Source: Mustelus asterias
Lineage: Eukaryota
Direction of reading: 5' to 3'
Assembly (NCBI RefSeq): GCF_964213995.1
Contig: NW_027590128.1
Coordinates: 1,488,001 to 1,552,000, forward strand
DNA length: 64,000 nucleotides
Positions 19,200-59,889 of this stretch are shown piece by piece; positions within the stretch are counted from its first letter, which is position 1, and each line of letters begins with the position of its first letter. The notes beneath the pieces are model-generated. The model made no database searches and had not been told where the DNA came from. It saw only the letters and a list, made by a program, of their open reading frames with translations. A program made the position numbers and the translations under genes.

Positions 19200-19724
19200 T
19201 CGCTCCCAGTCTCTCTCGCTCCCAGTCTCTCTCGCTCCCAGTCTCTCTCGCTCCCAGTCTCTCTCGCTCCCAGTCTCTCTCGCTCCCAGTCTCTCTCGCT
19301 CCCAGTCTCTCTCGCTCCCAGTCTCTCTCGCTCCCAGTCTCTCTCGCTCCCAGTCTCTCTCGCTCCCAGTCTCTCTCGCTCCCAGTCTCTCTCGCTCCCA
19401 GTCTCTCTCGCTCCCAGTCTCTCTCGCTCCCTGTCTCTCTCGCTCCCTGTCTCTCTCGCTCCCTGTCTCTCTCGCTCCCTGTCTCTCTCGCTCCCTGTCT
19501 CTCTCGCTCTGTCTCTCTCACTCTCTGCCTCTCACTGTGTCTCTCTCTCTCTTGCTGTGTGTCTCTCCCTCTCTGTCTCTCTTTCTCTCTCTCGCTCCCC
19601 TTCTTTCCCTCTCTGTGTCTCTCTCGCTCCCTGTCTCTCTCGCTCCCTGTCTCTCTCGCTCCCTGTCTCTCTCGCTCCCAGTCTCTCTCGCTCCCAGTCT
19701 CTCTCGCTCTGTCTCTCTCGCTCT
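19200..19724. repeat. 14-bp pyrimidine-rich minisatellite (CTCGCTCCCAGTCT / CTCGCTCCCTGTCT)
   Basis: Direct tandem units between N gaps at 19048-19199 and 19725-20162. Confidence 0.95.
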
Positions 19725-20162: not shown

Positions 20163-21100
20163 CTCCCCCACCCCCCGAGCTGTTCCCCCCCCCCGAGCTG
20201 TTCCCCCCCCCCGAGCTGTTCCCCCCCCCCCGAGCTGTTCCCCCCTCCCGAGCTGTTCCCCCCCGGAGCTTCCCCCCCCGAGCTTCCCCCCCCGAGCTTC
20301 CCCCCCCGAGCTTCCCCCCCCGAGCTTCCCCCCCCGAGCTTCCCCCCCCGAGCTTCCCCCCCCGAGCTTCCCCCCCCGAGCTTCCCCCCCCGAGCTTCCC
20401 CCCCCGAGCTTCCCCCCCGAGCTTCCCCCCCCGAGCTTCCCCCCCCGAGCTTCCCCCCCCGAGCTTCCCCCCCCGAGCTTCCCCCCCGAGCTTCCCCCCC
20501 CGAGCTTCCCCCCCCGAGCTTCCCCCCCCGAGCTTCCCCCCCCGAGCTTCCCCCCCGAGCTTCCCCCCCCGAGCTTCCCCCCCCGAGCTTCCCCCCCCGA
20601 GCTTCCCCCCCCGAGCTTCGCCCCCCGAGCTTCGCCCCCCGAGCTTCGCCCCCCGAGTTTCGCCCCCCGAGCTTCCCCCCCCGAGCTTCCCCCCCCGAGC
20701 TTCCCCCCCGAGCTTCCCCCCCCGAGCTTCCCCCCCCGAGCTTCCCCCCCCGAGCTTCCCCCCCCGAGCTTCCCCCCCGAGCTTCCCCCCCCGAGCTTCC
20801 CCCCCCGAGCTTCGCCCCCCGAGCTTCGCCCCCCGAGTTTCGCCCCCCGAGCTTCCCCCCCCGAACTTCGCCCCCCGAGCTTCGCCCCCCGAGTTTCGCC
20901 CCCCGAGCTTCGCCCCCCGAGCTTCGCCCCCCGAGCTTCGCCCCCCGAGCTGTTCCCCCCGAGCTGTTCCCCCCCGAGCTGTTCCCCCCCCCGAGCTGTT
21001 CCCCCCCCCCGAGCTGTTCCCCCCCCCGAGCTGTTCCCCCCCCCGAGCTGTTCCACCCCCCCGAGCTGTTCCCCCCCCCGAGCTGTTCCCCCCCCCGCTC
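20163..21100. repeat. 13-16-bp C-rich minisatellite (C7-9 GAGCTT / GAGCTGTT)
   Basis: Direct tandem units; long G-runs on the minus strand. Confidence 0.95.
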
Positions 21101-23819: not shown

Positions 23820-24160
23820 CAACCGGGATATTGGGTTCATGTCACACTATTTGTAACTCCCACAGTTGCGTGGACCTGCAGAGTTTCACTGGCTGTCTTG
23901 TCTGGAGACAATACACATAGTTTTAGCCTGTCTTGATGCTCTCTCCACTCACATTGTTTTGTTTCTTAAAGACTTGATTAGTTGTAAGTATTCGCATTCC
24001 AACCATTATTCATGTAAATTGAGTCTGTGTCTTTATAAGCTCTGTTTGTGAACAGAATTCCCACTCACCTGAAGAAGGGGCTTAGAGCTCCGAAAGCTTG
24101 TGTGGCTTTTGCTACCAAATAAACCTGTTGGACTTTAACCTGGTGTTGTTAAACTTCTTA
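23820..24160 (+). mobile_element. Penelope pLTR with ORF tail, in ZNF 5' region
   Basis: Begins NRDIGFMSHYL*; ends AATAAACCTGTTGGACTTTAACCTGGTGTTGTTAAACTTCTTA; TSD TCCTGTCT; near-identical to 47835-48158. Confidence 0.85.
24066..24102 (+). ncRNA. Minimal type I hammerhead ribozyme motif
   Basis: CAC-CUGAAGA-A-GGGGC-uuaga-GCUCC-GAAA-GC-UU-GUG. Confidence 0.7.
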
Positions 24161-24939: not shown

Positions 24940-25573
24940 ACATGTCCCTGGGCGGGGGCGGGGTTGACCTGGAATTCCAGGCTCACACACTGCGCATGCG
25001 TCATTCTTCTCGTTGCCCATAATAAATATGGCCGCCGCGCATGCGTCCTGTTGTATCTAACTCGTTTCAAGATGGCGACCGTTACCCTTGAACCGCGAAC
25101 GCGGCCCGCTTTCTGCAAACGCGGGGCCGGGAGCTTCTTATTCTTTGTTTAGAACCTCTATCAGATGTTTATGAAGCCTTCCAACCCACACACTGGCTCT
25201 ATCGCTCCGCGCTTACCGGCGATTTCCAAATTTATTTCGCTCTAAATCGCAACCCAGCAACCACTTCCAGTATCCGGACTGCGCATGCTCCACATCGTAA
25301 CGCTCGGACTGTGATTGACGGCAGCTCCGGACCAATAGGAAGAGGGGGCGGGGCTGGAGGACCACGCGGGAGTGGCTGGTCCTCCAACCAATCGGAGTGA
25401 ATGAGGGGCGCGCCTGGAGGACCGAGCATGAGCGGTTGGTCCTCCAACCAATCAGAGTGAATGAGAGGCGGGGCTGAGCCCGGATCTCCCTCATTGGCTG
25501 AAACTCTGCAACATTGTGAAAGCTGCTTTGTGTCAAAGTCCAGGAGAAAACTGGACCTTTCTGTTTGTGGCTT
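24940..25573 (-). promoter_or_regulatory. CpG-rich promoter module P (copy 1) upstream of ZNF 22280-23332
   Basis: GC boxes; GCGCATGCG x2 and TGCGCATGCTC (NRF1-like); AAGATGGCG (YY1-like); CCAAT at 25332, 25388 and 25448. Confidence 0.7.
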
Positions 25574-27458
25574 CAAACAGATGGAGCCCTGTGGGTGCGG
25601 AGCAAACAGATGGAGCCCTGTGGGTGCGGAGCAAACAGATGGAGCCCTGTGGGTGTGGAGCAAACAGATGGAGCCCTGTGGGTGCGGAGCAAACAGATGG
25701 AGCCCTGTGGGTGCGGAGCAAACAGATGGAGCCCTGTGGGTGCGGAGCAAACAGATGGAGCCCTGTGGGTGCGGAGCAAACAGATGGAGCCCTGTGGGTG
25801 CGGAGCAAACAGATGGAGCCCTGTGGGTGCGGAGCAAACAGATGGAGCCCTGTGGGTGCGGAGCAAACAGATGGAGCCCTGTGGGTGCGGAGCAAACAGA
25901 TGGAGCCCTGTGGGTGCGGAGCAAACAGATGGAGCCCTGTGGGTGCGGAGCAAACAGATGGAGCCCTGTGGGTGCGGAGCAAACAGATGGAGCCCTGTGG
26001 GTGTGGAGCAAACAGATGGAGCCCTGTGGGTGCGGAGCAAACAGATGGAGCCCTGTGGGTGTGGAGCAAACAGATGGAGCCCTGTGGGTGCGGAGCAAAC
26101 AGATGGAGCCCTGTGGGTGCGGAGCAAACAGATGGAGCCCTGTGGGTGCGGAGCAAACAGATGGAGCCCTGTGGGTGCGGAGCAAACAGATGGAGCCCTG
26201 TGGGTGCGGAGCAAACAGATGGAGCCCTGTGGGTGCGGAGCAAACAGATGGAGCCCTGTGGGTGCGGAGCAAACAGATGGAGCCCTGTGGGTGCGGAGCA
26301 AACAGATGGAGCCCTGTGGGTGCGGAGCAAACAGATGGAGCCCTGTGGGTGTGGAGCAAACAGATGGAGCCCTGTGGGTGCGGAGCAAACAGATGGAGCC
26401 CTGTGTGTGTGGAGCAAACAGATGGAGCCCTGTGGGTGTGGAGCAAACAGATGGAGCCCTGTGGGTGTGGAGCAAACAGATGGAGCCCTGTGGGTGCGGA
26501 GCAAACAGATGGAGCCCTGTGGGTGTGGAGCAAACAGATGGAGCCCTGTGGGTGCGGAGCAAACAGATGGAGCCCTGTGGGTGCGGAGCAAACAGATGGA
26601 GCCCTGTGGGTGCGGAGCAAACAGATGGAGCCCTGTGGGTGCGGAGCAAACAGATGGAGCCCTGTGGGTGCGGAGCAAACAGATGGAGCCCTGTGGGTGC
26701 GGAGCAAACAGATGGAGCCCTGTGGGTGCGGAGCAAACAGATGGAGCCCTGTGGGTGCGGAGCAAACAGATGGAGCCCTGTGGGTGCGGAGCAAACAGAT
26801 GGAGCCCTGTGGGTGTGGAGCAAACAGATGGAGCCCTGTGGGTGCGGAGCAAACAGATGGAGCCCTGTGTGTGTGGAGCAAACAGATGGAGCCCTGTGGG
26901 TGTGGAGCAAACAGATGGAGCCCTGTGGGTGTGGAGCAAACAGATGGAGCCCTGTGGGTGCGGAGCAAACAGATGGAGCCCTGTGGGTGCGGAGCAAACA
27001 GATGGAGCCCTGTGGGTGCGGAGCAAACAGATGGAGCCCTGTGGGTGTGGAGCAAACAGATGGAGCCCTGTGGGTGCGGAGCAAACAGATGGAGCCCTGT
27101 GGGTGCAGAGCAAACAGATGGAGCCCTGTGGGTGCGGAGCAAACAGATGGAGCCCTGTGGGTGCGGAGCAAACAGATGGAGCCCTGTGGGTGCGGAGCAA
27201 ACAGATGGAGCCCTGTGGGTGCGGAGCAAACAGATGGAGCCCTGTGGGTGCGGAGCAAACAGATGGAGCCCTGTGGGTGCGGAGCAAACAGATGGAGCCC
27301 TGTGGGTGCGGAGCAAACAGATGGAGCCCTGTGGGTGCAGAGCAAACAGATGGAGCCCTGTGGGTGCGGAGCAAACAGATGGAGCCCTGTGGGTGCGGAG
27401 CAAACAGATGGAGCCCTGTGGGTGTGGAGCAAACAGATGGAGCCCTGTGGGTGCGGAG
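25574..27458. repeat. 29-bp minisatellite, 65 copies (CAAACAGATGGAGCCCTGTGGGTGCGGAG)
   Basis: 1885 bp = 65 x 29; near-perfect units. Confidence 0.98.
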
Positions 27459-27761
27459 CAAACACATCAACATTTGTCACTGAGATAAAAACAGTAAATG
27501 CTGGAAAATCTCAGCAGGGCTGACAGCATCTGTGGAGAGAGAATAGAGCCAACGTTTCGAGTCTGGGTGACCCTTTGTCAGAGCTAAGAACAAAAAATGT
27601 TAAAGAAGTAAAAAGAGTTTTGTTACTAAAATGTGGGAAGATGAGGGAAAAATTCACAAACAATTCAAGGATTTAAAATAACAACAGCAGACAGGGAATC
27701 TCATCATTAGAACAAGGACTGATTTCAATAATTTAACTGCAAGAGGGTTAAGAAGAGTTAA

Positions 27762-40529: not shown

Positions 40530-40848
40530 CAATGACACTGCGCATGCTCCACATCACAATGCCCGGGGACTGATTGACGGCAGTTCCGGGCCAATAGGAA
40601 AAGGGGGCGGTGCTGGAGGACCGAGCGGGAGTGGCTGATCCTCCAACCAATCGGAGTGAATGAGGGGCGGGGCGGGGCTGGAGGACAGAGCGGGAGCGGC
40701 TGGTCCTCCAACCAATCAGAGTGAATGAGAGGCGGGGCTGAGCCCGGATCTCCCTCATTGGCTGAAACTCTGCATCATTGTGCAAGCTGCTTTGTGTCAA
40801 ACTCCAGGAGAAAACTGGACCTTTCTGTTTGTGGCTTCAAACAGATGA
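40530..40848 (-). promoter_or_regulatory. Promoter module P (copy 2), without minisatellite
   Basis: Closely similar to 25278-25583; three CCAAT and GC boxes; ends CAAACAGATG then diverges. Confidence 0.7.
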
Positions 40849-47800: not shown

Positions 47801-47834
47801 GCCATCTTGAGAGGGCATCCTAGAATCAGAATTT

Positions 47835-48158
47835 ATGTCACACTATTTGTAACTCCCACAGTTGCGTGGACCTGCAGAGTTTCACTGGCTGTCTTGTCTG
47901 GAGACAATACACATCTTTTTAGCCTGTCTTGATGCTCTCTCCACTCCCATTGTTTTGTTTCTTAAAGACTGGATTAGTTGTAAGTATTCGCATTCCAACC
48001 ATTATTCATGTAAATTGAGTCTGTGTCTTTATAAGTTCTGTTTGTGAACAGAATTCCCACTCACCTGAAGAAGGGGCTTAGAGCCTCGAAAGCTTGTGTG
48101 GCTTTTGCTACCAAATAAACCTGTTGGACTTTAACCTGGTGTTGTTAAACTTCTTACT
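47835..48158 (+). mobile_element. Penelope pLTR with hammerhead motif at 48062-48098
   Basis: Near-identical to 23839-24160; TSD ATCTTGAGAGGG; CAC-CUGAAGA-A-GGGGC-uuaga-GCCUC-GAAA-GC-UU-GUG. Confidence 0.85.
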
Positions 48159-48945: not shown

Positions 48946-49921
48946 CAATGACATACTTTTTACTTGTGAGATTTCCTGCCTCTACCACCTTTCCTCTGTT
49001 TCTCTCTCCACAGATTCTGACCAGAATTCTCTGGCCATTCATGCCGTGGGATTCTGCATTCCTGCTGGCAGCACACCCCCGCCCATGGGTATCCCGCTGG
49101 CATGGGGTGATGTTCATGGGAATTCCCATCGACAGCAGTGGCACCAGAGAATCCTGCTGCCAGCAAACATCGCGCCTTTTCCCGTCCGTGGGAAACACAC
49201 TGCTGGGAGGCCGGAGAATCTTACCCACTGTCTGACCTGCTCAGTATTTCCAGCATTTTTTGTGTTTATTTCAGATATCCAGCAGCTGCAATATTTTGAT
49301 AGTATTTTATTGTAGGCATTGCTCACAGAACCAACTTTAGAAACAAGATTGACCAATTATGAAACAAAAACAAAAAGCTGGAAAATCTCAACAGGTCAGA
49401 CAGCATCTGTGGAGCTGGAGCCAAAGTTTGAAATGTTGGCTCTGTTCTCTCTCCACAGATCAGCTCCTCTGATCCTTCCAGGGGGTGGAGTTTGAGGGAT
49501 TGGAAGATTCTGTCAAGGTTCTGGTTAGTGATGGGTAAGTAAAATCCCTATACTTCACCTCCTGCCTCTCCAACATCTTTCTCTCTCCTCCCAGAGATCC
49601 AATCGTCATGTGTAGACCCACACTGGTTGGCACCTCCCTTCCCTGAAGGGCATTGGTGAACCAGTTGGGTTTTTGTGAAAATTGAGCAGTTTTCATGATC
49701 ACTGTTTCCTCCTGCTGGCCCCTCAAATTACCACATTCATTCAGCTCAATTTCTCAACCTGCCTTTGTGTTTTTGTGAACTCTCTCTCTCCCTTTTTTCT
49801 GTTTTAAATCACAGGATTGTAGAAGAGGAGGATTTACAATCGGGAAACTCAAATCAACCATCACACCAGAATCTGTGAATCATCCAATTTGTCATAACCT
49901 GAATATCATAGGGCTTTCAAC

Positions 49922-52900
49922 ATGGAAGGAAAAAGCACCATTCACAGTGGAGAGAAACTGTACACGTGTTCTGTGTGTGGACAAAGATTCAGCCAATCAT
50001 CTGCCCTTTTGAAACACCAGCGAGCTCACACTGGAGGGAGACTGTTCATTTGCAGTGTTTGTGGGAAAGGATTTACTCGATCATTTACCCTTCTCAGACA
50101 CCAGCGAGTTCACACTGGGGAGAGGCCATTTACCTGCTGTGTGTGGAAAGGAATTCACTCAGTTATCCTGCCTGCTAACACACTCACACTGGGGAGAGGC
50201 TGTTCACCTGCTCGGAATGTGGGAAGGGATTCATTAATTCAACTAATTTGCTGACACACCAGCGAGTTCACACTGGAGAGAGGCCTTTCACCTGCCCTGC
50301 ATGTGGCAAAGGATTCATGAATTCATCCAACCTGCAGAGACACCAACGAGTTCACACTGGGGAGAGACCGTTCACCTGCTCTGTGTGTGGGAAGGGATTC
50401 ACTCAGTCATCCCATCTGCAGACACACCAGCGAGTTCACACTGGGGAGAGGCCATTTACCTGTTCTGATTGTGGGAAGGAATTCACTCAGTTATCTCACC
50501 GGCTAAGACACCAGCGAGTTCACACTGGGGAAAGGCCATTCACCTGCTCCGAGTGTGGAAAGGGATTCACTCAAGCAAATGACCTACTGAGACACAAACG
50601 AGTTCACACTGGGGAGAAGCCATTCATCTGTTCTGTGTGTGGAAAGGGGTTCACTCAATCAAATGACCTGCTCAGACACGATCGAGTGCACACTGGGGAG
50701 AGACCATTTATCTGCTCTGAGTGTGGGAAGGGATTCACTCGGTCATCCAACCTATTGGATCACCAGAGAATTCACACTGGGGAGAGACTATTTATCTGCT
50801 CTGAGTGTGGGAAGGGATTCACTACCTCATCCAGCTGGCAGGGGCACAAGCGAGTTCACACTGAAGCAAGAACTTTGACCTGCACCGAGCCTGGGAAGGG
50901 AGTCACAATCTCATCCAGCCAGCAAGGACACCGGAGAGTTCAGACTGAGGGAAGTCCAGTTACCTGTACTGAGTCTGGAAAGAGAGTCATTCAGTCATCC
51001 AAGCAGCAGGGACACCGGAGAGTTCAGATTGAGGAAAGTTCAGTTACCTGCACTGAGGGAAGTTCAGTTACCTGCACTGAGGAAAGTCCAGTTACCTGCA
51101 CTGAGGGAAGTTCAGTTATCTGCACTGAGGGAAGTCCAGTTACCTGCACTGAGGGAAGTTCAGTTACCTGCACTGAGGGAAGTTCAGTTACCTGTACTGA
51201 GGGAAGTTCAGTTACCTGCACTGAGGGACGTTCAGTTACCTGCATTGAGGGACGTTCAGTTACCTGCACTGAGGGAAGTTCAGTTACCTGCACTGAGGGA
51301 AGTTCAGTTACCTGCACTGAGGGAAGTTCAGTTACCTGCACTGAGGGAAGTTCAGTTACCTGCACTGAGGGAAGTTCAGTTACCTGTACTGAGGAAAGTC
51401 CAGTTATCTGCACTGAGGGAAGTCCAGTTACCTGCACTGAGGGAAGTCCAGTTACCTGGACTGAGGAAAGTTCAGTTACCTGCACTGAGGGAAGACCAGT
51501 TATCTGCACTGAGGGAAGTTCAGTTATCTGCACTGAGGGAAGTCCAGTTACTTGCACTGAGGGAAGTTCAGTTGCCTGCTCTGCGTCTGGGAAGGGAGTC
51601 ATTCAGTCATCCAGCCAGCAGGGATGCCACAGAGTTCGCACTGAGGAAAGTCCAGTTACCTGCACAGAGTCTGGGAAGGGATTCATTCCATTATCTAATC
51701 TGCTGACAGACGAGCGAGACGACACCGATGAAAGACCTTTGAAATGTCCGTACAGTGGGACTTGTTTTCAAAGTTCTGTGGAATTGGTGTCCCATCAATG
51801 TGTTCACACTGACGAGAGACTATTCAGGTGCTCTCACTGTGGGGCTGCGTTCATGCGATCGTCTGACCTCACTGAACACCAATGCACTCACTCTGGGGAA
51901 AGGCTCCTCACTTTCCCCAAGTGTGGAAAGGGATTCACTCAGTCATCCAACCTGCTGACACGCCAGCAAGGTCGCAATGTGAAGAGGCAGTTCACTTGTC
52001 CCGAGTGTGGGAAGGGATTTACCCAGTCAACCAACCTGCTGAGACACCAGCGAGTCCACACTAGGGAGAGGCCATTCCTCTGCTCCGAGTGTGGGAAGGG
52101 ATTCACTGAGTTATGCAACCTGATGACACACCAACGGGTTCACACTGGGGAGAGGCCCTTCCTCTGCTCAGAGTGTGGGAAGGGTTTTATTAATTCCACC
52201 AACATGCTGCGACACCAGCGAGTTCACACTGGAGAGAGGCCGTTCACCTGCCTCAATTGTGGGAAGAAATTCACTCAGTTACCACATCTACAGAGACACC
52301 AGCGAGTTCACTCAGGGGAGAGGCCATTCCCCTGCACTGTGTGTGAGAAGGGATTCGCTCAGTTATCACACCTGGTAAGACACCAACGAGTTCACACTGG
52401 GGAGAAACCATTCACCTGCTCCCAGTGTGGGAAGGAATTCGCCCAGTCAAATGACTTGCTGAGACACCAGCGACTTCACACTGAGGAGAGACCATCCATG
52501 TGGCTCTGAGTGTGGGAAGAGATTCACTCAGTTATCCAGTCTGCTGAAACACCAGAGAGTTCACACTAGGGAGGTGCTGTCCATCTGCTCTACATGAGAA
52601 AACGGATTCTCTCAGTCATCCTGCCTGCTTTGATTCACCAGTAATTTCACATTGGACAAAACCCTTTAAATGCCGGGACTGTGGGAAGTACAATAAATGT
52701 TCCTGGGAACTGCAACATCTACATGTTCATACTGATCAGATACCATTCAGGTGCTTTCACTGCAGATGCGTCCAAGAAATCATTTCAACTTACTGTACAC
52801 CGGAAATTTCACAGTGCGGAGAGCCTCCACCTGCCTTGAATGTGGGAAGGAATTTGCTTATTTATCCCATGTGCTGAGATACCAGCGAGTTCACAATTAA
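49922..52900 (+). pseudogene. Large C2H2 ZNF (class B) with frameshift in finger 3, long open frame 50248-52509 and internal 8-aa repeat
   Basis: [12 protein letters not shown] start; small deletions near 50140 and 50186; first in-frame ATG of the long frame at 50317; decayed fingers after 52500. Confidence 0.75.
51028..51579 (+). repeat. In-frame 24-bp coding minisatellite, 23 x TEGSSVTC
   Basis: 552 bp = 23 x 24 (ACTGAGGGAAGTTCAGTTACCTGC); no indels or in-frame stops. Confidence 0.97.
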
Positions 52901-54414: not shown

Positions 54415-54997
54415 CAAACAGATGGAGCCCTGTGGGTGCGGAGCAAACAGATGGAGCCCTGTGGGTGCGGAGCAAACAGATGGAGCCCTGTGGGTGCGGA
54501 GCAAACAGATGGAGCCCTGTGGGTGCGGAGCAAACAGATGGAGCCCTGTGGGTGCGGAGCAAACAGATGGAGCCCTGTGGGTGCGGAGCAAACAGATGGA
54601 GCCCTGTGGGTGCGGAGCAAACAGATGGAGCCCTGTGGGTGCGGAGCAAACAGATGGAGCCCTGTGGGTGCGGAGCAAACAGATGGAGCCCTGTGGGTGT
54701 GGAGCAAACAGATGGAGCCCTGTGGGTGCGGAGCAAACAGATGGAGCCCTGTGGGTGCGGAGCAAACAGATGGAGCCCTGTGGGTGCGGAGCAAACAGAT
54801 GGGAGCCCTGTGGGTGCGGAGCAAACAGATGGAGCCCTGTGGGTGCGGAGCAAACAGATGGAGCCCTGTGGGTGCGGAGCAAACACATGGAGCCCTGTGG
54901 GTGCGGAGCAAACAGATGGAGCCCTGTGGGTGTGGGGGCAAACAGATGGAGCCCTGTGGGTGTGGGGGCAAACAGATGGAGCCCTGTGGGTGCAGAG
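54415..54997. repeat. 29-bp minisatellite, 20 copies
   Basis: 583 bp = 20 x 29 plus three single-base insertions; same unit and flanks as 25574-27458. Confidence 0.97.
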
Positions 54998-55795
54998 CAA
55001 ACACATCAACATGTCACTGAGATGGGTTCATTCAGCACACACAGCAGGGATTAATTCAGGAAATTACACAGTGCAGTGAGAAAGGAAATTCAGTGCCAGG
55101 TTTGAGGAGCTGGGAATTGCAACTGAAGGTTTGAGAAAAGAAAAAAACTGGAGTAAGGAAGGAGAAAATGACAATAAACTGAAGATGAATTTACATTCCT
55201 GGGTGTCCTTTATCCCGAATTTTAATCACTCCACCATTGGTAGCCGTGTCTTCAGCTGCCTGGACCCCAAACTCTGGAATTTCCTCCCTGAACCTCTCCA
55301 TCTTTCCACTTCACTTTCCTCCTTAAAGACTCTCCTTATAACTGATCTCTTTGACCAAGACTTTGGATCATCCGACCCAATATGTCCTTATGGTTCTGTG
55401 AAACTGCTTAGGACATTTTATTAAGTGAAAAGCTCACTACAACTAAAAGTGAGATCTGATCACTTGCTGAGTGAGTCTGTGTAAATATAGCTCAGACAGA
55501 CACAGCTTGTGTCAGAGTTTAGTGAGATCTGATCACTTACTGAGTGAGTGAGTCTGTGTTAATGTAACTCAGACACAACTTCTGTCATAATTCAGTGATA
55601 TTTAATCACTTACTGTGTGATATACATATATATCAATTGCATGGCTATGTCAAAACATATATCCGGATATATGAATTAGGAGCAGGAGTCGGCCACTCAG
55701 CCTGGTCTGTCATTCAATAAGATCATGTCTGGTCTGATTGTAACCTCAACTCCATAAACCCACCAACCCCAATATCCTTTCACCCCCTTATTTAT

Positions 55796-58700
55796 TGTTA
55801 CGATCCTTGACCAGACCCCAGGATACAAGGAGAAATCCAGTTAAAATAGATAATATTTGAGACAAGACATTTAAGTATTATAGAATCCCTACAGTGCAGA
55901 AGGGGGCCATTTGGCCCATCGAGTCTACACCAATCACAATCCCACCCAGGCCCTATCCCCGTAACCCCACTAGCTCTGCTAGACCCCTGACACTAAGAGG
56001 CAATTTAGTATGGACAATCCACCTAACCTGCACATTTTTGGATTATGGGAGGAAACCAGAACACCCGGAGGAAACCCACGCAGACATGGGGAGAACGTGC
56101 AAACTGCACACAGACAGTGACCCAAGGCTGGAATCGAACCTGGATCCCTGGCACTGTGAGGCAGCAGTGCTAACCACTGTGCCACCGTGCCGCCCATGTT
56201 TAGCAAATGAAGAAAGGCACAAGATTCCACAGATTCAGAACAAACAAAATAAACTTTACTATGCAAGGTAGGAGAGGTAAAAAATTTACAATATAAGAAC
56301 ATAAGAACATAAGAAATAGGAGCAGGAGTAGGCCATCTAGCCCCTGGAGCCTGCCCCGCCATTCAATAAGATCATGGCTGATCTGACGTGGATCAGTACC
56401 ACTTACCTGCCTGATCCCCATAACCCTTAATTCCCTTACCGATCAGGAATCCATCCATCCGCGCTTTAAACATATTCAGCGAGGTAGCCTCCACCACCTC
56501 AGTGGGCAGAGAATTCCAGAGATTCACCACCCTCTGGGAGAAGAAGTTCCTCCTCAACTCTGTCTTAAACCGACCCCCCTTTATTTTGAGGCTGTGTCCT
56601 CTAGTTTTAACTTCCTTACTAAGTGGAAAGAATCTCTCCGCCTCCACCCTATCCAGCCCCCGCATTATCTTATAAGTCTCCATAAGATCCCCCCTCATCC
56701 TTCTAAACTCCAACGAGGACAAACCCAATCTCCTCAGCCTCTCCTCATAATCCAAACCCCTCATCTCCGGTATCAACCTGGTGAACCTTCTCTGCACTCC
56801 CTCCAATGCCAATATATCCTTCCTCATATAAGGGGACCAATACTGCACACAGTATTCCAGCTGCGGCCTCACCAATGCCCTGTACAGGTGCATCAAGACA
56901 TCCCTGCTTTTATATTCTATCCCCCTCGCGATATAGGCCAACATCCCATTTGCCTTCTTGATCACCTGTTGTACCTGCAGACTGGGCTTTTGCGTCTCAT
57001 GCACAAGGACTCCCAGGTCCCTTTGCACGGTAGCATGTTTTAATTTGTTTCCATTGAGATAGTAATCCCATTTGTTATTATTTCCTCCAAAGTGTATAAC
57101 CTCGCATTTCTCAACGTTATACTCCATTTGCCATATCCTCGCCCACTCACTCAGCCTGTCCAAATCTCTCTGCAGATCTTCTCCGTCCTCCACACAATTC
57201 ACTTTTCCACTTATCTTTGTGTCGTCTGCAAACTTCGTTACCCTACACTCCGTCCCCTCCTCCAGATCATCTATACAAATGGTAAATAGTTGCGGCCCGA
57301 GTACCGATCCCTGTGGCACGCCACTAGTTACCTTCCTCCAACCGGAAAAACATCCATTTATTCCGACTCTTTGCTTCCTGTCGGATAGCCAGTCCCCAAT
57401 CCACTTTAACACACTACCCCCAACTCCGTGTGCCCTAATCTTCTTCAGCAGCCTTTTATGGGGCACCTTATCAAATGCCTTTTGGAAATCCAAAAACACC
57501 GCATCCACCGGTTCTCCTCCATCAACCGCCCTCGTCACATCTTCATAAAAATCCAACATGTTCGTCAAGCACGACTTTCCCCTCATGAATCCATGCTGCG
57601 TCTGATTGATCGAACCATTTCTATCCAGATGCCCTGCTATCTCCTCTTTAATAATGGATTCCAGCATTTTCCCTACTACAGACGTTAAGCTGACCGGCCT
57701 ATAGTTACCCGCCTTTTGTCTCCTTCCTTTTTTAAACAGCGGCGTAACATTAGCCGTTTTCCAATCAACCGGCACTACCCCAGAATGCAACGAGTTTTGA
57801 TAAATAATCACTAACGCATCCACTATTACCTCTGACATTTCTTTCAATACCCTGGGATGCATTCCATCCGGACCCGGGGACTTGTCCACCTTCAGTCCCA
57901 TTAGTCTACCCAGCACTGCCTCTCTGGTAACATTAATCGTATTAAGTATTTCTCCTGCTGCCAACCCTCTATCGTTAATATTTGGCATACTATTTGTGTC
58001 CTCCACCGTGAAGACCGACACAAAAAACTTATTTAAAGACTCAGCCATATCCTCATTTCCCACTATTAACTCCTCCCTCTCGTCCTCCAAGGGTCCAACA
58101 TTCACTCTAGCCACTCTATTCCTTTTTATATATTTATAAAAACTTTTACTATCATTTTTTATATTAATTGCTAGCCTAGCTTCATAGTCTATCCTTCCTT
58201 TCTTTATCGCTTTCTTAGTCTCTCTTTGTTGTTTCTTAAATTTTTCCCAATCACTTGTTTCTCCACTATTTTTGGCCACTCTGTACGCAGCTGTTTTTAT
58301 TTTAATACTCTCCTTTATTTCCTTCGTTATCCACGGCTGGTTATCCCTTTTCTTACAATCCTTGTTTTTTGCTGGAATATATTTTTGCTGAGAACTGAAA
58401 AGGATCTCCTTAAAAATCCTCCACTGTTCCTCAGCTATCCTACCTGCCAGCCTGCTCTCCCAGTCTACCTTAGCCAATTCATCCCTCATCCTATCATATT
58501 TCCCTCTGTTCAAACAGAGGACATTGGTTTGAGACCAAACTTTCTCCTCTTCCATCTGAATCAGAAATTCGACCATATTGTGGTCACTAGAGCCAAGAGG
58601 GTCCTTCACAATAAGATCCTTAATTCTACCTACCTCGTTACACAATACCAGATCCAAAATAGCTCGTTCCCTCGTCGGTTCCGTAACATGCTGTTCAAGG

Positions 58701-59889
58701 AAACTATCCCGACAGCATTCTAAGAACTCTTCCTCCATTCCACCCTTACCGACTTGAGTCTGCCAGTCAATGTGCATGTTGAAGTCCCCCATGATTATTG
58801 CCGTTCCGTTTTTACACGCATCCCTTATCTGCTTGTTTACAGCCCTCCCTACCTCAACATTATTATTTGGGGGCCTATATACCACACCTACTAGTGTCTT
58901 TCTCCCTCTACTATTCCTCATCTCTACCCATAACGATTCCACGTTTTGTTCCTCAGAGCCTATGTCATCCCTCAGTACTACCCTGATATTATCTCTTATT
59001 AATAGCGCGACCCCACCACCTTTTCCTTCCTGTCTATTCTTCCTAAACGCCTGATACCCCTGGATATTCATCTCCCAGTCCTGGTCACCTTTCAGCCACG
59101 TTTCTGTAATGGCCACTAGATCGTACCCACTTGTGCTGATTTGCACCATCAACTCATTCACCTTGTTCCGAATGCTTCTGTAGGTGTATTTTATTCTCTG
59201 ACATTCATGGTAAATGAGGTACATGTGAATTAACAAACTGTGGTCGGACACATCACACTGTAAAATAAAATGACAGATGCAATCAAAATCAATTCCATGG
59301 ATTTCTCCACGACCTTTCCAGACATCAGACCCGCTGTGAGTCAACCAATCTCACGAAAGCTTTACCTTTCTCATGAGGGTTTTCCAACAGCATCTTTGAA
59401 TATCTCTCCATGGAATTGTCTCTAAACATTAGCCCCAGTCAGATGCTTTTAATAATTGCCCACCTCAGAGAGTTTCAATCTCAGCTCCTGAAATTCTTTC
59501 TCCCTGGATTCCGGAGTACACTCAAACACCAGCTTTCAAACATATTTTGAGATCTCTTGTCGTGCCAAGCAGAATATCGCTACTCCAAAGGGACACCTTT
59601 GCCCCAATGGCCCTCTTTACTTAAAGTCTGCTCCCCACAGTCTTTCTCCAACTTTTTAGACTCAACTTTACTGGGACCTCAGCCTATCTCTGTGGTATTT
59701 CTTGGCTATCAAACTCCCTGAAGCTGCATCAAGAAGTACTGATCACTGACCCTTGAAATGATCTGGTGACCCCCCAACACTCCCAGAAGGTTCCACTCTT
59801 GTTACCAGGCAGCAACCATCTCCAGATGTTTAACAATCTCCAGATGTTTAATTTAGAAGCCAGGAACACAATTAATTAAATTCCGGACA
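55796..59889. mobile_element. Solo LTR (about 0.9 kb net) in an old CR1, itself interrupted by a V-SINE (55880-56198) and a young CR1
   Basis: TG...CA termini with 4-bp TSD TTAT (55792-55795 and 59890-59893); the flanking CR1 3' UTR resumes across it. Confidence 0.65.
56295..59179 (-). mobile_element. Young CR1 LINE with uninterrupted ORF2 (APE + RT), 5'-truncated
   Basis: About 928 open codons with ITETW, GDFN, SDH, QHGF, DFQKAFD, GVPQGSVLGP, FADD; (TTCTTATG)n tail. Confidence 0.97.

What the first reader, a model, noticed from the sequence alone, without database searches (positions are those of the whole stretch)
50860..51700. A zinc-finger linker turned into a new 8-residue Cys/Thr repeat (TEGSSVTC x 23)
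Flanking fingers have lost their second Cys and His (TEGSPVTCTESGK). In that finger ACTGAG occurs twice 24 bp apart, which is the exact repeat unit, so slippage amplified the [15 protein letters not shown] linker. The result is 184 aa with 22 evenly spaced Cys, acidic and Thr/Ser-rich, separating two finger blocks, with no frameshift despite substitutions. It could be a spacer, metal-binding tract or beta-solenoid (TCT ladders occur in beetle antifreeze proteins; analogy only). The gene has an upstream frameshift, so translation needs the 50317 ATG or another allele.
Basis: partly seen in the sequence, partly recalled or inferred. Interest (0 to 1): 0.7.

Follow-up and report, generated by a model that had tools for sequence, protein, structure and literature searches.

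The report
Variable minisatellite inside shark zinc-finger genes
A 24-base piece of a worn-out zinc finger is repeated 23 to 64 times in twelve near-identical copies of a shark-type zinc-finger gene; it likely arose by copying slips and would make a tolerated filler stretch in the five complete copies, while this copy is broken upstream of it and nothing found supports a new antifreeze-like or metal-binding domain.

Summary
The repeat is real: 23 in-frame 24-bp units (51028-51579; 184 aa, 22 Cys) derived from a C2H2 linker, within a run of dead fingers, bounded by an ACTGAG microhomology. It is not unique. Twelve near-identical copies in this genome carry 23-64 units. Five have complete ORFs, one is cut by a contig end, and six are broken, three of them inside the array (one stop, one shared +1 insertion). 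The window copy has private 2-bp and 8-bp deletions that end its ORF at 110 aa, before the repeat. Distinct variants in the unit look neutral (omega about 1.0; Cys codon hit four ways; low power), while flanking fingers show weak constraint (omega 0.61, p=0.04). AlphaFold2 folds the repeat as a beta-repeat, but folds the antisense frame about as confidently, a published artefact. No repeat-bearing homologue was found; expression is untested. Best reading: a young coding minisatellite, likely tolerated as filler. The scan reached the same reading earlier on a 52-unit paralogue (e1-9949735).

The parts
49813..49814 (+). Predicted splice acceptor (AG after a pyrimidine tract) of the coding exon
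   Evidence: Sequence; the same in all 11 copies that reach it; prediction only, no RNA
49922..50254 (+). ORF from the family start codon (strong context), cut to 110 aa with 2 fingers in this copy
50137..50184 (+). Finger 3, carrying a 2-bp and an 8-bp deletion private to this copy (net frameshift)
   Evidence: Alignment of 12 copies; no contig of runs X1-X4 bridged the junctions
50188..50859 (+). Eight canonical C2H2 fingers (F4-F11), out of frame with ATG 49922 in this copy
50317..50319 (+). Internal in-frame ATG in weak context (730-aa ORF on paper)
50860..51027 (+). Two dead fingers (F12, F13; Cys2 and His2 lost). F13 keeps the single-unit state with ACTGAG at 50944 and 50968
51028..51579 (+). 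24-bp minisatellite, 23 units (consensus TEGSSVTC), expanded in the linker of dead finger F14
51580..51807 (+). Body of dead finger F14, then dead fingers F15 (one more unit-like linker at 51640) and F16
51808..52479 (+). 3' finger block: F17 canonical, F18 dead, F19-F24 canonical
52480..52509 (+). Truncated last finger and stop, shared by the complete copies

Best explanation
The repeat is a 24-bp minisatellite that likely arose by microhomology-mediated duplication of one linker in a run of already dead zinc fingers, and it varies from 23 to 64 units among twelve near-identical gene copies; in the five complete copies it would be translated as a likely neutral, tolerated filler between an 11-finger and a 7-finger block, while the window's copy is frameshifted before it and is likely dead. 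Steps: (1) shown: fingers F12-F16 lost Zn ligands and F13-F15 share derived linker changes; (2) shown: those changes left (A)CTGAG at both ends of a 24-bp segment; (3) inferred: slippage or unequal exchange made a doublet and then an array; (4) shown: the gene and at least 10 kb around it exist in 12 copies, with signs of recombination between them, and array length varies; (5) inferred: selection, if any, acts on the fingers and on keeping frame, not on the unit's amino acids; (6) untested: transcription and translation.
For: The unit matches the gene's canonical linker at 17 of 24 bases (read from the lines printed). Single-unit linkers survive in F13 and F15, a two-unit stage in C183, and an F13-to-array fusion in C118a/C1764. 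Twelve copies have 97-100% identical 3' flanks and 23, 24, 24, 29, 29, 43, 51, 51, 52, 52, 52 and 64 units. Among 492 units there are 6 synonymous and 15 non-synonymous distinct single-base variants, omega 1.00 after transition correction; the Cys codon is changed four ways (Ser twice, Trp, stop). Complete copies C88 and C115 carry Cys-to-Ser units. The flanking coding sequence has omega 0.61 (39 N, 25 S; one-sided p=0.038), with 1 of 39 replacements at Zn ligands against 4.8 expected (p=0.04). Six of 12 copies are broken by four independent sets of lesions, two of them inside the array. [quoted passage not shown]
Against: The array test has low power: 21 of 72 possible changes were seen, events were not mapped on a tree, and recurrent changes count once. 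Weighted by frequency, the VTCTE half is nearly constant (Cys lost in 7 of 492 units, Glu2 never changed), while G/E, S/R and S/P variants are common. This could be constraint, although G/E, S/P and TGC/TGT already exist in the neighbouring single linkers. Five copies keep 873-1125-aa ORFs through arrays of up to 51 units. The 3' finger block alone shows no significant constraint (omega 0.73, p=0.30), and pN versus non-coding divergence gives p=0.06, so translation through the array is not shown. Gene conversion from other fingers could lower omega without selection. Charge-hydropathy values lie at the folded/unfolded boundary, five of six tested on the folded side by 0.004-0.038, so disorder is not established.
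Confidence: 0.68

Rival explanations
1. The repeat is a selected module in the complete copies: an acidic, Ser/Thr-rich spacer or phosphorylation tract whose length tunes the reach or activity of two finger blocks.
For: Five complete ORFs and one more open frame cut by a contig end. Weak constraint on the fingers. The VTCTE half is nearly constant, with one S/T-x-x-E motif per unit. These genes have no KRAB or SCAN among the 25 best of 32 Pfam rows shown, so an effector could be useful.
Against: Neutral variant spectrum, threefold length range and breaks inside the array in 3 of 12 copies. No aromatic or Leu residues in the five complete copies; acidic activation domains usually depend on these (recalled). 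No conservation outside this genome was found.
Confidence: 0.14
2. The whole family is decaying, the array was never translated to any effect, and the open frames are simply too young to have broken.
For: Six of 12 copies are broken; 6 of 24 fingers are dead in all copies examined; copies differ by only 0-2.4%; constraint 3' of the array is not significant.
Against: Omega 0.56 in the 5' block (p=0.048) and 0 replacements at its 44 ligand codons against 3.4 expected.
Confidence: 0.12
3. The repeat folds into a beta-solenoid with a Thr ladder (antifreeze-like) or binds metal through its Cys ladder.
For: AlphaFold2 gives a strand every 8 residues with block pLDDT about 72-90 over most of the array. 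There are 17 TxT motifs in the window array. Weak hits to the T4 gp5 beta-helix, E=0.16.
Against: The antisense frame of the same DNA gets the same kind of model at mean pLDDT 74.6. AF2 gave beta-solenoids for 32 of 78 random repeat sequences (PMC11795689, section 3.2 part 1). No Foldseek match at E<=0.001. No CC, CxC or CxxC motifs. The repeat sits inside a C2H2 protein that starts with fingers and is likely nuclear, where disulfides are unlikely (recalled). The Cys codon is not spared by mutation.
Confidence: 0.05
4. The array is an assembly artefact.
For: Two pairs of copies (C106/C333, C118a/C1764) have identical arrays and 0-1 differences per flank, so they may be haplotigs or duplicated contigs.
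Against: Contigs of independent short-read runs join flank to array at the 5' end (X1, X3) and the 3' end (X4). Arrays differ in unit order between copies.
Confidence: 0.01

Closest known systems
Microhomology-mediated tandem duplication / Haber-Louis origin of minisatellites (PMC13167724; abstract and opening passage read)
   Same: A single-copy segment flanked by short direct repeats duplicates and then expands; mostly neutral
   Different: Here the seed is a C2H2 linker inside a coding exon, and one-unit, two-unit and many-unit states survive side by side in paralogues
Protein-coding VNTRs such as those of mucins MUC5AC, MUC5B and MUC7 (search listing and abstract starts only)
   Same: In-frame, Ser/Thr-rich units of variable copy number in one large exon
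   Different: Mucin repeats are secreted, glycosylated and functional (recalled); this one is in a likely nuclear ZNF, was found only in this genome and its runs, and shows no amino-acid constraint
Tandem C2H2 ZNF cluster genes of sharks (NCBI 'zinc finger protein 721-like/850-like', Heterodontus francisci; 52-59% identity over the 3' block)
   Same: 28-aa finger arrays with TGERP linkers
   Different: None of the listed hits was returned by the searches aimed at the repeat as carrying it
Insect beta-solenoid antifreeze proteins TmAFP and sbwAFP (10.1101/2025.03.18.644030, passages read)
   Same: TxT motifs at regular spacing
   Different: Insect AFPs rely on extensive disulfide bonding (that paper) and are small secreted proteins (recalled); here there is one Cys per 8 residues inside a ZNF, with no significant sequence or fold match
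Metallothioneins (recalled)
   Same: Many Cys, few aromatic residues
   Different: 12% Cys evenly spaced, with no CC, CxC or CxxC clusters

Membership tests
Coding minisatellite (VNTR) | Head-to-tail units of 10-60 bp | tested here: met
   23 x 24 bp, 92% matches
Coding minisatellite (VNTR) | Copy number varies | tested here: met
   23-64 units among 12 copies in one assembly; variation between individuals not tested
Coding minisatellite (VNTR) | Lies in frame in a coding exon | tested here: met
   In frame from the family ATG to the stop in 5 of 12 copies; not reached in the window copy
Coding minisatellite (VNTR) | Transcribed and translated | not testable with these tools
   No expression data were obtained
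Microhomology-mediated tandem duplication | Unit bounded by short direct repeats in the single-copy precursor | tested here: met
   ACTGAG at 50944 and 50968; CTGAG after the last unit in C110; doublet in C183
Insect beta-solenoid antifreeze protein | TxT motifs in register | tested here: met
   17 TxT in the window array
Insect beta-solenoid antifreeze protein | Beta-solenoid fold | tested here: inconclusive
   AF2 model matched by the antisense control; no Foldseek hit at E<=0.001
Insect beta-solenoid antifreeze protein | Small secreted, disulfide-stabilised protein | tested here: not met
   Internal segment of an 873-1125-aa C2H2 protein whose first finger begins at residue 9; one Cys per unit; no signal-peptide predictor was run
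Insect beta-solenoid antifreeze protein | Sequence similarity to known AFPs | tested here: not met
   No AFP among 17 PDB sequences at E<=10 or 7 Pfam families at E<=1
Metallothionein / Cys-cluster metal binder | CC, CxC or CxxC clusters | tested here: not met
   0 of each in the six arrays tested
Metallothionein / Cys-cluster metal binder | Tight metal binding | not testable with these tools
   Needs an assay
Tandem C2H2 ZNF gene | C-x2-C-x12-H-x3-H fingers with TGE(R/K)P linkers | tested here: met
   18 of 24 units canonical in C110; Pfam zf-C2H2 E=1e-106
KRAB or SCAN ZNF | N-terminal effector domain | tested here: not met
   None among the 25 Pfam rows shown for P0002; in-frame stop upstream of the ATG; upstream exons not mapped

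The most novel reading that the evidence does not exclude
A young shark ZNF subfamily has turned its own linker into a new Cys/Thr/Glu repeat domain of 190-510 residues. The domain is translated in at least five genes, folds or binds Zn through a regular Cys ladder, and is length-tuned between paralogues: a repeat domain caught in the act of being born.
Probability: 0.07. Interest if true: 0.65.

Novelty: new member of a known kind. Interest (0 to 1): 0.24.

Why it matters
As it stands, this is a tidy natural record of how a coding minisatellite is born. The precursor linker, the microhomology, a two-unit stage and arrays of 23-64 units are all preserved in paralogues of one genome, with frame-breaking outcomes beside frame-keeping ones. 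It also shows why a confident AlphaFold2 solenoid or an above-threshold Pfam score on a near-perfect repeat needs a control from another frame. It would matter more if the five complete genes proved to be translated and the insert had a fold or a length-dependent effect, since that would show a new repeat domain arising from a linker.

Tried and rejected
Expression: no RNA holder listed; this is no evidence either way. The four runs listed (one study) look like genomic libraries, since a contig crosses the predicted intron-exon boundary unspliced. Window deletions in reads: no contig bridged them; contigs show presence, not absence, so the deletions rest on the assembly alone. Summed contig depth was not used as copy number.

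Homologues: region search of P0002 gave 6 hits among 7990 candidates. The top one (P0004) was read and has no such repeat; the other five are named E4F1 or ZNF271-like at 25-35% identity and were not read. P0003 gave 0 hits among 7987 candidates of 157-503 aa. Proteins longer than 1528 aa were not covered by the word searches. Full-library phmmer listed 150 of 2242 hits. I inspected 34 of them, chosen by eye as those whose best stretch reached into the repeat: all are unrelated repeats or plain fingers, and none is a TEGSSVTC-type array in a ZNF. The ESM Atlas gave no answer.

Pfam Cupin_3 scores above its cut-off (37-41 bits) but was rejected: the two other frames tested get equally spurious above-threshold hits (PT 56, BCL9 41, LRR_EndoS 32 bits). 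Ten of the next-best genomic matches (76-78% identity) were fetched as possible repeat-free ancestors; they are different ZNF genes with canonical fingers. The VIA-align searches and complex prediction were not run, as the model failed its control and no binding is claimed.

Literature: six searches. 'TEGSSVTC' had 0 papers, and the shark C2H2 and degenerate-finger searches listed nothing on this repeat; subscription journals are mostly not covered. The whale shark paper (PMC8455134, 5 passages) had nothing relevant. No supplements were read.

Full report
Observation. The window holds several C2H2 zinc-finger genes and minisatellites. At 51028-51579 there are 23 head-to-tail 24-bp units, consensus TEGSSVTC, giving 184 aa with 22 Cys, 39 Thr, 36 Ser and 27 Glu in a stop-free frame from 50179 to 52509. 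The unit pattern matches 25 times in the window and never in 100 shuffles. The best identities of the 3' finger block include horn shark ZNFs at 52-59%, consistent with a shark. The genome is 3.68 Gb in 5313 contigs.

Origin. Cutting the complete paralogue C110 into 28-aa units gives 24 fingers, 18 of them canonical. F12-F16 and F18 lack Zn ligands, and F13-F15 share derived linker bases found in 0-4 of the 18 canonical fingers. The unit matches the canonical linker at 17 of 24 bases (read). In F13 the changes leave ACTGAG at 50944 and 50968, exactly one unit apart. The array itself sits in F14, which is 83% identical to F13. Single units remain in F13 and F15; C183 has an extra dead finger with a two-unit stage; in C118a and C1764 the array starts directly at F13. 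This is the geometry of microhomology-mediated tandem duplication, described as a major and mostly neutral source of tandem repeats (PMC13167724; abstract and opening passage). The mechanism is inferred from this geometry, not observed.

A family, not one locus. An exact two-unit pattern has 326 matches in the genome and 0 for the reversed control. A unique anchor and both flanks find the same 12 loci, with flanks 97-100% identical; these searches give lower bounds. Array lengths are 23 (window), 24, 24, 29, 29, 43, 51, 51, 52, 52, 52 and 64 units. From the family ATG, five copies are complete (C88, C110, C115, C170, C183; 873-1125 aa, 18 fingers), C118b is open but cut by its contig end, and six are broken. 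The breaks are: the window copy by private 2-bp and 8-bp deletions (110 aa), C106 and C333 by a shared 13-bp deletion upstream, C104 by a stop in unit 44 and a second stop further on, and C118a and C1764 by a shared +1 insertion inside the array. The two near-identical pairs may be haplotigs. Homology covers the 10-kb stretches fetched apart from insertions (output cut; seen for 5 of the 11 other copies). Of informative site pairs across the array, 1591 of 2646 are incompatible, against 517 of 1953 and 198 of 861 within sides, which points to recombination or conversion between copies. Contigs from short-read runs of one study join flank to array at both ends, so the array is not an assembly artefact. 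The window's own deletions were not bridged by any contig and rest on the assembly.

The window copy. ATG 49922 has a strong context and leads to a stop at 50254. ATG 50317 has a weak context and lies behind two further out-of-frame ATGs. A 730-aa product is possible on paper but unlikely, by general rules of scanning and reinitiation (recalled). This copy is also the most divergent on the 5' side (68-73 differences in 3050 columns), and 7 of the 37 unit types are found only in it.

Selection. I counted distinct alleles against the majority, with transition bias (kappa 3.3) taken from 3610 flanking non-coding columns. The coding flanks give 39 replacement and 25 silent changes, omega 0.61, one-sided p=0.038. 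One of 39 replacements hits a Zn ligand against 4.8 expected (p=0.04), and it is in the broken pair C118a/C1764. The 5' block gives omega 0.56 (p=0.048) and the 3' block 0.73 (p=0.30); pN against non-coding divergence gives p=0.06. Without the transition correction the combined ratio was 0.46 (p=0.003); I use the corrected value. In the array (492 of 494 units; the 2 units at the frameshift were dropped) there are 6 silent and 15 replacement variants, omega 1.00, and the Cys codon is changed four ways. These tests are weak: few events, no tree, and conversion from other fingers can mimic constraint. Against my reading, the VTCTE half is almost constant by frequency (Cys lost in 7 of 492 units). 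However, three of the common variants are already present in the neighbouring single linkers, so they need not reflect selection. The absence of frameshifts is not evidence of selection: a likely non-coding 29-bp array in the window has 64 of 64 exact spacings, and its shorter copy 15 of 18.

Structure and homologues. Single-sequence AlphaFold2 gives a strand every 8 residues with block pLDDT of about 72-90 over most of the array (mean 65 with flanks). The antisense frame of the same DNA gives the same kind of model at mean 74.6. AF2 is reported to fold 32 of 78 random repeat sequences into beta-solenoids, many of them confidently (PMC11795689; abstract and first third of section 3.2). Foldseek found 0 matches at E<=0.001 among 169 at E<=10. 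PDB sequence hits are all E>=0.16, led by T4 gp5. The Cupin_3 Pfam score is matched by equally spurious scores in two other frames. There are no CC, CxC or CxxC motifs, and charge-hydropathy values sit at the folded/unfolded boundary. Protein searches found no ZNF with this repeat (limits under Tried and rejected). Four unrelated finger proteins among the 34 inspected carry other 8-residue-period repeats, so short coding repeats recur in ZNF genes.

Verdict. This is a young coding minisatellite born from a dead finger's linker and carried into a recently amplified ZNF subfamily. It is likely a tolerated filler in the complete copies and silent in this one (0.68). A selected spacer or phosphorylation tract (0.14), a wholly decaying family (0.12) and a folded or metal-binding domain (0.05) remain as rivals. 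Expression is untested. The scan's earlier follow-up of a 52-unit paralogue reached the same reading (e1-9949735); that is an AI note, not independent support, and my reading was recorded before I saw it.

Noticed in passing
window 25574-27464 and 54415-55003: A 29-bp minisatellite (65 and 20 copies). The long array starts just after GC-box/CCAAT-like tandem repeats (25345-25470) and is open in several frames, giving Cys-periodic ORFs of up to 675 aa. The related promoter-like stretch at 40604-40738 is followed by a single short unit-like word near 40840, a possible precursor.
   Followed up: partly
window 47816-48158: An insertion of about 350 bp with a 12-14-bp target-site duplication, absent from the 10 other copies that reach this spot and 97.5% identical to 23836-24160; likely a young SINE or LINE tail.
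   Followed up: partly
window 56393-59224 (-): An uninterrupted 943-aa endonuclease plus reverse-transcriptase ORF (LINE ORF2 type). The insertion is absent at the matching place in C110 and C118a, while C115 follows the window at 99.95% to 56600.
   Followed up: partly
window 52480-52900: The last finger is cut short in the complete copies, and finger-like remnants continue in other frames past the stop.
   Followed up: no
L021-L032 (12 copies): Relationships differ on the two sides of the array (C183 groups with C104/C115 on the 5' side and with C88/C106/C333 on the 3' side), suggesting the array or its surroundings is a site of exchange between paralogues.
   Followed up: partly
P0083, P0084, P0118, P0141 (unnamed library proteins): Unrelated C2H2 proteins with their own 8-residue-period repeats.
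   Followed up: no
window 19200-19723 and 20187-21094: 16-bp and 14-bp C-rich tandem arrays next to N stretches.
   Followed up: no
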